From assembly GCF_006345805.1 (NCBI RefSeq), contig NW_021825379.1, positions 1 to 15,741 of the forward strand: a DNA stretch of 15,741 nucleotides, given 5' to 3'. Source of the DNA: Octopus sinensis (lineage: Eukaryota). Within the stretch, counting starts at the first letter, position 1. Each line of letters starts with the position of its first letter. This document shows, piece after piece, positions 7,932 to 9,778 of this stretch. A program made the position numbers.

Positions 7932-9778
7932 TGTACTTTATAATTAGGGTTCAGCAAAGATTTGCTTTACCACATACCGAAGTTTAGAAATAGCAGTCAA
8001 AAAAACCTTAGCTATTTCTTCTACTTTAAAAAGGGACTCCCAGAAAAACCAAAAATACTTGAAAACAATCCACGCAGGCAGAGAGGAAAAATGACGAAAA
8101 TCAATCTATATCTGGTCACCCATGTACACGTGTTTCGGAATTAGATCGGTATAAAGAATATAGAATTGTACTTTACCCAACCATTTTCCTTCATCAGCAT
8201 GGGACTCCAACAATATTAAATATTAAATATTAAATTCGAAGGTACTGAAAGAATTGAATATATCTCTCCACCTAACGGTATCAGACAGATCATATTCAGT
8301 GCTAGTACCGCCGAATTCAAAATACGAATGCGGTTCATCACCTTCCCCTGCCCATCCGCGTGTGTCGTCAAGTAAGATGCTACAGAAAAATCTGCAGTTT
8401 GTTATCAGGGAGAAAATTCTATTATCAATAATGACAAAGGGTAAAATTAATTAATTAAGAAGTAATCAAAAATTTCACCAAGTAGAATTCGGCATGAAAA
8501 AAGAGCATTTCACGGTAAACTTAAGTAATACTTTATAATTAAGGTTCAGCAAAGATTTGCTTTACCACATACCGAAGTTTAGCAATAACAGTCAAAAAAC
8601 CTTAGCAATTTCTTCTACTTTAAAAAGGGACTCCTAAAAAAACCCAAATACTTGAAAACAATCCACACAGGCAGAGAGGAAAAATAACGAAAATCAATCT
8701 ATATCTGGTCACCAGAAATAGCTATATATATACAATTAGAGTATTATATTGTAGTTAGTTCATCTCTGACATCTCTTCGCTCCCTGAACTCGCTCTTTTT
8801 CTCCTTCTTTCCTTTCTTTTGTTTATACCTTCCTTCTATGTCACAGTATCTCATACCCATATCCTTGTACACATTTACACATTTCTATATTATCCTTCAC
8901 ATTCCTCATGCCTCCCATTTCACCTTACTCCCACACCAGCTCCCATACATACTTTCCCCATGCACGTACCCCCCACTCTCTCTCACACACACATTCACAG
9001 AAACACTTCACACCCCAAATAACATACGTCTCCTGAACTTTCATACTTCTGCACACATACACATACCCGCAAACCCACTACACTACTTCCTTATATGCTC
9101 ATAACTAAACACAGATACACCCTTATACTTGCGCATACCCGACCACCTTCCCTCCTTAACTACGATAGAACCGCATTCTCACTTGGCTACTATCCCATCA
9201 CTGTTTGTTTTCTGTTTTTTTTTCTTTTTGCTGTCATCGACATTTTCTCATTCACATACACATCTATGCATTTCTCTATTCTCTTGCTTCTGATGAATGA
9301 CTAAAGACCGAAACGTTAGGGCTCTTATCCTTCTTTTATACGTTTAGTTAACAGATTTTTGTTTTTAAACTTTTTTTCTACGTGTGTTGCCTCCTTTTTT
9401 TTTATCGTTCATTACATATACATTATATATACCAAAAATTCACAACGACCTCGAACCCACAAGAGAGAGAGTAAGAGAGAGAGAGAGACAGACAGAGAGA
9501 GAGAGAGAGACAGAGAGAGAAACAGGCAGAAATAATGAAAATATCACTAGTATTTGAACACTATGCAAATATTCTTTTAAAAACTTTTCTTTTAATTTTT
9601 CCAAAATTTAATTGTTTTCCATACTTACAGTTGAAAAAGTCTCAATGACTGAAATCGGTCCTAAAACGTTTTTTATACAATTATTTTATCATTTTCTATC
9701 CTGACTTTTTATATATATATATATATATCAATACGTGTGTTCCTTTTCAACCTTCTACACACCCACACACCCACCCAA

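What the first reader, a model, noticed from the sequence alone, without database searches (positions are those of the whole stretch)
7934..8722. Retrozyme-like element: 595-nt non-coding unit whose terminal repeat begins at the hammerhead cleavage site
Seen: a ~187-bp direct repeat with a 595-bp period, one intact type I HHR on the minus strand, no ORF, and (TA)n on both flanks. On the ribozyme strand the element's 5' end (8713, GGUGACCAG...) lies only 4 nt into the predicted 3' cleavage product (CAUG-GGUGACCAG...). Known: Penelope-like elements carry HHRs in partial-tandem pseudo-LTRs, and metazoan non-LTR retrozymes are HHR-containing repeats processed into circular RNAs. Inference: this copy is a reverse transcript of a self-cleaved, possibly circular, ~595-nt RNA copied about 1.3 times and mobilised in trans by a Penelope-type RT. 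It may be an undescribed cephalopod retrozyme family with a large monomer.
Basis: partly seen in the sequence, partly recalled or inferred. Interest (0 to 1): 0.9.

Follow-up and report, generated by a model that had tools for sequence, protein, structure and literature searches.

The report
Retrozyme-like hammerhead ribozyme repeat copy
A non-coding 1.3-unit repeat carries one hammerhead self-cleaving ribozyme and ends next to the ribozyme's cut site, so it looks like a dead copy of a known kind of ribozyme-bearing mobile element, not a new kind.

Summary
7934-8120 and 8529-8713 are a 94% identical direct repeat with a 595/593-bp period. Between them, on the minus strand (8203->8119), lies a type I hammerhead with every core position intact. 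My descriptor finds this one site in the window and 0.005 per shuffle. Rfam scores it only 13.1 bits against a cut-off of 34, because helix II is 54 nt long. The ribozyme-strand 5' end of the element (8713) matches a point 4 nt inside the predicted 3' cleavage product. (TA)n lies on both sides and nothing coding is present.

New here:
- The unit RNA is predicted to be unusually self-paired (z -7.5) with the hammerhead left free.
- The ribozyme has traits of Penelope-element hammerheads: a bulged base before stem II, a long helix II and a palindromic helix III that pairs between two copies.
- 9-11 element-derived bases fill the 5' junction.

Best reading: a reverse-transcribed, non-autonomous retrozyme/Penelope-type copy made from ribozyme-cut RNA and now inert, since it has one ribozyme. 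Copy number, circularity, the mobilising enzyme and the host taxon could not be checked. A 595-nt unit is not unusually large. It is a new member of a known kind.

The parts
7888..7932 (.). (TA)n tract on the low-coordinate side. It is the presumed target microsatellite and also the tail of the SINE-like copy at 7726-7887.
   Evidence: TRF period 2, 23.5 copies. The SINE-like repeat plus its tail aligns to 13681-13465 at 81.8% over 220 nt.
7934..8120 (-). Repeat copy R1, 187 nt. It is the 3' terminal repeat on the ribozyme strand and begins 4 nt after the predicted cut.
   Evidence: 94.1% identical to 8529-8713.
8121..8528 (-). Unique part of the 595-nt unit, 408 nt. No coding remnant was found. 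It pairs at long range with the repeat in the predicted RNA fold.
   Evidence: Predicted helices join 8098-8020 with 8421-8334.
8119..8203 (-). Type I hammerhead ribozyme, 85 nt. The core is intact, A8190 is unpaired, helix II spans 53 nt (8189-8137; 54 nt with A8190), and helix III is a palindromic 8-mer.
8124..8125 (-). Predicted self-cleavage site, after A17 (8125). The 3' product starts at C8124.
   Evidence: Rfam alignment and descriptor hit. Cleavage itself was not tested.
8529..8713 (-). Repeat copy R2, 185 nt. It is the 5' terminal repeat on the ribozyme strand, and its first base corresponds to 8120.
8714..8724 (.). Filler of 9-11 nt at the ribozyme-strand 5' junction, derived from the element. 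The first 9 nt are a direct copy of 7986-7994. All 11 nt are the reverse complement of 8009-8019.
   Evidence: As background, 14 of 14929 window 11-mers outside the element also occur in it.
8723..8732 (.). (TA)5 on the high-coordinate side, the remainder of the target microsatellite.
   Evidence: Read directly.

Best explanation
This is one old, inert copy of a non-coding retroelement of the retrozyme / Penelope-associated kind that carries a hammerhead ribozyme.

Inferred history: a source array was transcribed on what is here the minus strand. Paired hammerheads in the multimeric transcript cut it after ...GUA, giving RNA with a 5'-OH end at C8124-equivalent. A reverse transcriptase primed at a nick in a (TA)n tract started 191 nt downstream of one cut site. 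It copied through one uncut (or re-ligated, or template-jumped) junction and a full 595-nt unit, and stopped 4 nt short of the RNA's ribozyme-made 5' end. It then added 9-11 bases copied from the element itself before joining to the target.

The result is repeat-unique-repeat, 780 nt or 1.31 units, with a single hammerhead. The locus therefore cannot release a unit-length RNA.

Shown here: the repeat, the hammerhead motif, the junction positions, the absence of coding capacity and the predicted RNA fold. Inferred: transcription, cleavage, reverse transcription, the enzyme (a Penelope-type RT/GIY-YIG protein acting in trans) and the existence of a multi-copy family.
For: 1. The hammerhead is not a chance motif. 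There is 1 hit in the window against 0.005 per shuffle, and 0 in 1000 shuffles at the stricter setting. Rfam aligns it over the full Hammerhead_1 model with every conserved position matched.

2. The repeat boundary is 4 nt from the predicted cut. By my arithmetic about 1.5% of positions would be that close.

3. (TA)n lies on both sides. Penelope-like elements favour microsatellite targets, (TA)n for Naiads, form partial tandems and carry junction extensions.

4. The hammerhead has an unpaired base at the 5' end of stem II, a long helix II and a small palindromic helix III. These are the traits listed for Penelope-element hammerheads. Two copies are predicted to form a double hammerhead with an intermolecular 8-bp helix III, at -63.7 against 2 x -27.2 kcal/mol.

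5. The GUA triplet before the cut and a long segmented helix II both occur in natural hammerheads.

6. The circular unit RNA folds to -169.6 kcal/mol, against -124.3 (sd 6.0) for 100 shuffles, z -7.5, with 0 of 100 shuffles as low. Helices I and II of the hammerhead are formed in that fold. Eight control windows gave z +0.69 to -2.87, against -5.65 for the element's ribozyme strand. Metazoan retrozyme RNAs are described as highly self-paired with the hammerhead free.

7. GC is 34.8% and there is no ORF and no Pfam family at or above a curated cut-off.

8. The filler at the 5' junction is element-derived, as expected from template switching.
Against: - This is one locus only. No second copy exists in the window and no eukaryotic genome, Dfam or Repbase could be searched, so a family is assumed.
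- Rfam scores the ribozyme 21 bits below its gathering score, and the wider searches miss it.
- Cleavage is untested. With a one-base-pair helix III plus tetraloop, a single copy is expected to cut poorly.
- The boundary is 4 nt off the cut, not at it, and the coincidence was noticed after the fact.
- Raw folding energy is not exceptional. Microsatellite-rich windows reach -212 kcal/mol, and the mean over the 44 control windows (lower-energy strand of each) is -154.7.
- The plus strand also has z -3.3, so part of the signal is plain DNA self-complementarity.
- The two repeat copies differ at 9 substitutions. Eight fall in predicted pairs; 4 keep the pair (all C-to-U) and 4 break it, with no compensatory change. 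There is therefore no covariation support.
- No RT or GIY-YIG frame was seen among the 20 frames scanned.
- The filler is 9-11 nt, not the 30-40 bp tail described for Penelope-like elements.
Confidence: 0.55

Rival explanations
1. A circular 595-nt RNA was copied by rolling-circle reverse transcription for about 1.3 turns.
For: The partial tandem passes through an intact junction. The published retrozyme model uses circular templates to make tandem cDNA. The unit is predicted to be a stable, self-paired circle.
Against: A circle has no end, so it does not explain why copying stopped 4 nt from the cut site on the second pass but not the first. A linear cut RNA, or a jump between linear monomers, explains it directly. 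No RNA data are available.
Confidence: 0.15
2. The unit is not an independent family. It is the terminal (pseudo-LTR) region of a catalogued autonomous Penelope-like element, present here as a heavily truncated or internally deleted partial tandem.
For: The hammerhead has Penelope-element traits. Most Penelope insertions are 5'-truncated, and single dispersed hammerheads were attributed to truncated elements. In Xenopus, 24 of 57 retrozyme families matched Repbase elements, 21 of those 22 elements being Penelope-like, at their termini.
Against: The tandem period is 595 bp, not the 3-4 kb of an autonomous unit. The 408-nt unique part shows no RT or endonuclease remnant in the 12 of 19 frames scanned. 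No Penelope ORF was seen in the window frames that I scanned.
Confidence: 0.15
3. A DNA-level event, either local tandem duplication or a decayed satellite fragment, happens to contain a hammerhead relic. The closeness of the boundary to the cut site is coincidence.
For: There is only one locus. The region is rich in microsatellites and repeats that favour slippage and unequal exchange. Satellite-like growth of such repeats by unequal crossover is discussed.
Against: The boundary lies within 4 nt of the cut (about 1.5% by arithmetic). (TA)n is split on both sides. The element-derived filler sits at one junction only. Together these fit an insertion better than a duplication in place.
Confidence: 0.1
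4. The hammerhead is a chance look-alike and the repeat has nothing to do with ribozymes.
For: Rfam does not reach its gathering score.
Against: The descriptor expectation is 0.005 per window or less. The full-length Rfam alignment matches all conserved positions. Helices I and II appear in unconstrained folds.
Confidence: 0.02

Closest known systems
Metazoan non-LTR retrozymes (Cervera and de la Pena 2020, PMC7229834; Li, Clavereau and Pollet 2026 preprint, 10.64898/2026.07.22.740005)
   Same: Non-coding, low-GC repeat unit with a type I hammerhead. The arrangement is tandem. The RNA is predicted to be highly self-paired with the hammerhead free. There are no LTR features. The unit length of 595 bp lies inside the 51-972 bp range of the 2026 survey.
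   Different: Only 1.31 units and one hammerhead are present, so the locus fails the two-hammerhead criterion for an active copy. At 595 nt it exceeds the 150-450 bp repeats and 170-400 nt circles of the 2020 paper. Helix II is 54 nt where 4 bp is usual. Expression, circles and copy number are unknown.
Hammerheads in pseudo-LTRs of Penelope-like elements (Cervera and de la Pena 2014, PMC4209133; Craig et al. 2021, PMC8557442)
   Same: There is an unpaired base at the 5' end of stem II, a larger than usual helix II, and a small palindromic helix III suited to dimeric action. The structure is a partial tandem that creates a terminal repeat. The target is a microsatellite and extra bases sit at one junction.
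   Different: There is no RT/GIY-YIG ORF. Helix I is 6 bp with an extension, where the minimal Penelope variants have 4-5 bp. Helix III keeps 6 non-core bases. The filler is 9-11 nt, not 30-40 bp. Most of the catalytic core lies just outside the repeated part, not inside it.
Newt and axolotl satellite-2 type hammerhead (HHR_Amex1)
   Same: Helix III is a single base pair capped by a palindromic tetraloop, so a single motif is expected to cut poorly and to work as a dimer in multimeric transcripts.
   Different: Those repeats are about 330 bp and occur in long arrays with very many copies (126,247 hammerhead motifs in axolotl). Their loop 1-loop 2 contacts are conserved, and that was not assessed here.
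Plant LTR retrozymes (PMC4918200; search listing and abstract only)
   Same: Non-autonomous, hammerhead-bearing elements. The abstract of a related paper, PMC5680766, gives 600-1000 nt circular RNAs, a similar size.
   Different: They have type III hammerheads inside true LTRs, PBS and PPT motifs, GC above 55% and 4-bp target duplications. None of that applies here.

Membership tests
Hammerhead ribozyme, type I | Conserved core: CUGANGA, GAAA, the A15.1-U16.1 pair and a non-G base at position 17 | tested here: met
   Read, aligned by Rfam and found by the descriptor. The triplet before the cut is GUA, which occurs in natural hammerheads.
Hammerhead ribozyme, type I | Three helices, with helix I open and helices II and III closed | tested here: met
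   Unconstrained folds form helix I (6 bp plus an extension) and helix II. Helix III is one pair beyond the core plus a tetraloop, or 8 bp between two copies.
Hammerhead ribozyme, type I | Score at or above the Rfam RF00163 gathering threshold of 34 bits | tested here: not met
   13.1 bits, E=1.8, and only in a 131-nt search. Nothing was returned. The 54-nt helix II is skipped by the model.
Hammerhead ribozyme, type I | Site-specific self-cleavage | not testable with these tools
   This needs in vitro transcription of monomeric and dimeric constructs.
Hammerhead ribozyme, type I | Tertiary contacts between loop 1 and loop 2 | not tested
   Helix I has an internal loop in the fold, but helix II ends in a 14-nt loop far from the core. 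No comparison was made.
Metazoan non-LTR retrozyme | At least two consecutive tandem units, each with a complete hammerhead (the criterion for an active copy) | tested here: not met
   There are 1.31 units and one hammerhead. The locus would count as a monomer derivative in the sense.
Metazoan non-LTR retrozyme | Non-coding unit of low GC | tested here: met
   GC is 34.8%. The longest ATG frames are 25 and 40 aa. No Pfam family reached a cut-off in the 12 of 19 frames scanned. PBS and PPT motifs were not searched.
Metazoan non-LTR retrozyme | Unit RNA highly self-paired, with the hammerhead free to fold | tested here: met
   z is -7.5 for the circular fold, with 69% of bases paired and hammerhead helices I and II formed. 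Controls gave z +0.69 to -2.87. This is prediction only.
Metazoan non-LTR retrozyme | Many dispersed or arrayed copies in the genome; expressed as linear and circular RNA | not testable with these tools
   No eukaryotic genome or transcriptome collection was open. The prokaryote collection gave 0 matches.
Penelope-like element (autonomous) | ORF with RT and a GIY-YIG endonuclease | tested here: not met
   No such family was found in the 20 frames scanned: 10 of the 48 window frames of 70 aa or more, and 10 more frames of 30 aa or more over the element.
Penelope-like element (insertion signature) | Partial tandem giving a terminal repeat, a microsatellite target and a 30-40 bp tail at one end | tested here: inconclusive
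   The partial tandem and the (TA)n target are present. The extension is only 9-11 nt, against the 30-40 bp described.
Penelope-associated hammerhead | Unpaired base at the 5' end of stem II, enlarged helix II and a small palindromic helix III | tested here: met
   A8190 is unpaired, helix II is 54 nt and helix III is a self-complementary 8-mer. These were compared with the description.

The most novel reading that the evidence does not exclude
The family would have a 595-nt, strongly self-paired unit RNA and a Penelope-type hammerhead carrying a 54-nt helix II. Genome-wide, the family's 5' ends would pile up at the ribozyme cut site. That would be direct genomic evidence that hammerhead-cut RNA is the template for Penelope-type target-primed reverse transcription, and so would give the hammerhead in these elements a defined job. 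Its role was still called unclear or a mystery in the papers read.
Probability: 0.25. Interest if true: 0.6.

Novelty: new member of a known kind. Interest (0 to 1): 0.4.

Why it matters
The papers read here say that the role of hammerheads in Penelope-like elements and animal retrozymes is unresolved. An insertion whose end sits at the ribozyme's cut site is the kind of footprint that could tie cleavage to the template used for reverse transcription. One copy cannot carry that claim. It does give a precise and cheap genome-wide test: map the 5' ends of all copies of this unit. If the host is an octopus, Penelope-like elements are abundant and recently active there. None of the searched or read papers links cephalopods with retrozymes. 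As it stands, this is an ordinary dead copy of a known class.

Tried and rejected
- **Rfam.** The search at gathering score over the whole window gave 0 matches. The E<=10 search over 7700-8900 gave 13 weak matches, none a hammerhead; most were (TA)n artefacts such as mir-1277. Only the 131-nt search returned Hammerhead_1, below threshold.
- **Covariation.** I looked for it between the two repeat copies. Of 8 substitutions in predicted pairs, 4 keep the pair and 4 break it, with no compensatory change, and the structure was derived from one of the copies. I dropped this as evidence.
- **Raw folding energy across the window.** It does not single out the element, because microsatellite windows fold lower. 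I used z-scores against shuffles with control windows instead. The 8 controls were chosen by me for low microsatellite content, each on its lower-energy strand.
- **Other copies in the window.** BLAST at word size 7 found no other copy and no inverted truncated copy, apart from the 11-nt filler.
- **Coding remnants.** None found. The only Pfam line over the element was a Staphylocoagulase repeat at E=0.17, below its cut-off, which I took as noise.
- **tRNA-like genes.** ARAGORN found none.
- **Prokaryote genome collection.** One scan gave 0 matches, which says nothing about the source genome. I did not use the second scan.
- **Age.** The Jukes-Cantor distance between the repeats is 0.050. Suppose both were identical at insertion and the octopus calibration read applies (0.09 about 25 My, 0.2 about 56 My, measured to consensus). 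Then the copy is roughly 7 My old. This rests on an unverified taxon and I give it no weight.
- **Not checked.** The source genome, Dfam and Repbase, transcriptomes and the host taxon. Paper supplements were closed. The species lists and hammerhead catalogues in the supplements of PMC7229834, PMC4209133 and PMC8557442 (file S1 holds cephalopod Penelope-like consensus sequences) may already contain this unit or its hammerhead.
- **De la Pena and Flores 2001.** I saw only its title in reference lists and a one-line description.
- **First submission.** One search was returned for a missing confidence field; this is the same report with that field added.
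Full report
**What is in the sequence.** The window has no N. Two stretches, 7934-8120 and 8529-8713, are direct repeats: 94.1% identical over 187 aligned columns, with 9 substitutions and 2 single-base indels, and start-to-start spacing of 595 then 593 bp. Nothing else in the 15.7-kb window resembles the 789-bp region; the next best BLAST match is 15 nt at E=0.036. The repeat-unique-repeat block is 780 bp, or 1.31 units of 595 bp. 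It is bounded by (TA)n at 7888-7932 and by (TA)5 at 8723-8732. The low-coordinate (TA)n is also the tail of a SINE-like repeat at 7726-7887, whose other copies in the window likewise end in microsatellites. The block therefore sits inside a (TA)n tract.

**The ribozyme.** On the minus strand, 8203->8119 reads as a type I hammerhead.
- Helix I is 6 bp (8203-8198 with 8124-8119).
- CUGAUGA lies at 8197-8191, followed by one unpaired A (8190).
- Helix II runs 8189-8137. It starts with G-C, G-C, A-U, A-U and continues into a longer interrupted stem.
- GAAA lies at 8136-8133.
- Helix III consists of one further pair and the tetraloop ACGU.
- A17 is 8125, and the predicted cut lies between 8125 and 8124.

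Unconstrained folding of 111 nt forms helices I and II and extends helix I past an internal loop. A descriptor I wrote allows helix I of at least 5 bp, helix II of at least 4 bp, zero or one bulged base, and G-U pairs. It finds exactly this site in the window and 0.005 sites per dinucleotide shuffle. With 6 and 4 Watson-Crick pairs it finds none in 1000 shuffles. The bare CUGANGA word is not enriched: 6 observed against 4.8 expected.

Rfam is much less favourable. It gives no match at gathering score and none at E<=10 in a 1.2-kb search. Only a 131-nt search aligns Hammerhead_1 over its full 45 positions, at 13.1 bits against a gathering score of 34 and E=1.8. Every conserved position matches, but the 54-nt helix II is skipped as a local end. 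I conclude that the motif is a real hammerhead by descent. Its activity is unproven.

**What kind of hammerhead.** Passages of Cervera and de la Pena 2014 (PMC4209133) describe canonical metazoan type I motifs. These have helix I of 6 bp, helix II of 4 bp, and helix III of 1-2 bp capped by a small palindromic loop. That paper says such motifs work poorly alone but fold into a dimeric ribozyme when a second copy is near.

[quoted passage not shown] The present motif has all three, together with a canonical 6-bp helix I. The 8 bases from A15.1 to U16.1 are self-complementary. Two copies are predicted to form a double hammerhead with an intermolecular 8-bp helix III, at -63.7 kcal/mol against -54.4 for two separate monomers. 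The GUA triplet and a long, segmented helix II both occur in natural hammerheads (Table 1 and passages of PMC1636495). The unpaired A is therefore a family trait, not damage.

**The junctions.** On the ribozyme strand the element begins at 8713, which corresponds to 8120. By my arithmetic, about 9 of 595 positions lie within 4 nt of the cut, roughly 1.5%. This was noticed after the fact.

The 11 bases just beyond that end (8714-8724) are the reverse complement of 8009-8019. The first 9 are a direct copy of 7986-7994. These two places are the arms of a 9-bp hairpin within the repeat. Only 14 of 14929 window 11-mers outside the element occur in it, so this filler is probably element-derived. The other end (7934) abuts (TA)n with no filler.

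**The RNA.** A circular 595-nt unit, starting at the cut, folds to -169.6 kcal/mol with 69% of bases paired. That compares with -124.3 (sd 6.0) for 100 shuffles, giving z -7.5, and no shuffle was as low. The complementary strand gives -120.5. The fold is a long interrupted duplex between the repeat (8098-8020) and the unique part (8421-8334), plus side hairpins, and it leaves hammerhead helices I and II formed.

Several points count against over-reading this:
- Raw energies as low or lower occur in microsatellite-rich windows.
- The plus strand also has z -3.3.
- The differences between the two repeat copies give no covariation; 4 of 8 paired substitutions break pairs.

Even so, eight microsatellite-poor control windows gave z between +0.69 and -2.87, against -5.65 for the element's ribozyme strand under the same protocol. 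Metazoan retrozyme RNAs are described as highly self-paired, with the hammerhead free to fold (PMC7229834, sections read).

**Coding capacity and neighbours.** The longest ATG-started frames inside 7934-8722 are 25 and 40 aa. I scanned 12 of the 19 stop-to-stop frames of 30 aa or more, and none reached a Pfam cut-off. No RT or GIY-YIG frame appeared among the 10 of 48 longer window frames scanned.

**Mechanism.** The simplest account is target-primed reverse transcription of ribozyme-cut RNA at a nick in (TA)n. Synthesis starts 191 nt downstream of a cut site and runs through one intact junction and one full unit. It ends 4 nt before the RNA's ribozyme-made 5' end, followed by a short template switch that left the filler.

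The intact junction can come from three sources: an uncut dimer, a jump between linear monomers (the way partial tandems of Penelope-like elements are thought to arise), or a re-ligated circle. The sequence cannot tell these apart. However, an end at the cut site is predicted by a linear template and not by a circle. Every step after 'the motif and the junctions are where they are' is inference. The locus now has one hammerhead of the dimer-dependent type, so it should be inert.

**Comparison and membership.** The closest classes are metazoan non-LTR retrozymes and the terminal repeats of Penelope-like elements. A 2026 preprint argues that these are one lineage. In Xenopus, 24 of 57 retrozyme families matched Repbase elements at their termini, and 21 of those 22 elements were Penelope-like.

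The locus works like a retrozyme-derived insertion. It does not meet that preprint's criterion for an active retrozyme, which requires two consecutive units with complete hammerheads, and would count as a monomer derivative. The 595-bp unit exceeds the 150-450 bp repeats of the 2020 paper. It lies inside the 51-972 bp range of the 2026 survey, where ray-finned fishes average 650 bp. 'Large monomer' is therefore not a novelty.

**Novelty and limits.** None of the retrozyme or hammerhead texts I read mentions cephalopods. 'Cephalopod' and 'octopus' occur 0 times in PMC7229834 and PMC7761336. 'Ribozyme' occurs 0 times in the two cephalopod repeat papers. In the search, only two papers hold both 'retrozyme' and 'octopus'. 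In one search, only one of the 10 listed papers holds 'hammerhead ribozyme'. Supplements were closed and may list such elements.

I could not verify that the window is cephalopod. I also could not search the source genome, Dfam or Repbase; the one open genome collection is prokaryotic and gave 0 matches. The call is therefore a new member of a known kind, of moderate interest. There is a clear and cheap test that could raise it: mapping the ends of all copies.

Noticed in passing
window 4966-5208 (-), with 5330-5635 (-) nearby: An 80-aa open frame matches the C-terminal helicase part of the Helitron transposase Helraiser (PDB 7lcc_A residues 1371-1451, E=3.4e-15) and, weakly, PIF1 helicases. 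Pfam found nothing at E<=0.1. It is probably a decayed Helitron fragment. The neighbouring 101-aa frame was not identified.
   Followed up: partly
window 14305-14574 (+): An 89-aa frame hits Pfam COX2_TM (PF02790, 29 bits, E=1.3e-6). Under the invertebrate mitochondrial code the frame stays open to 14637. It is probably a nuclear copy of a mitochondrial cox2 fragment.
   Followed up: partly
window 7726-7942; also 13465-13690, 4703-4890 and 14659-14844: A SINE-like repeat family has copies 77-85% alike. Each copy ends in a (TA)n or (TATG)n-type microsatellite, and ARAGORN calls no tRNA in the window. The hammerhead element lies in the (TA)n tail of one copy, on the opposite strand.
   Followed up: partly
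window 8714-8724: The eleven bases right after the element's end are the reverse complement of 8009-8019. The first nine are a direct copy of 7986-7994, and these two places are the arms of a hairpin inside the repeat. The background rate for 11-mers is 14 of 14929. This suggests template switching or snap-back at the 5' junction.
   Followed up: partly
window 1816-2051 and 6344-6579: An inverted pair of another repeat, 93% identical over 236 bp. Its translated frames resemble each other. It was not identified.
   Followed up: no
window 11177-11408 and 12199-12420; 13214-13644 and 14668-15091: Two further inverted repeat pairs, 75% identical over 238 bp and 79% over 434 bp. They show that the window is a mosaic of interspersed repeats and microsatellites, including a 740-bp (AT)n tract at 10322-11062.
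   Followed up: no
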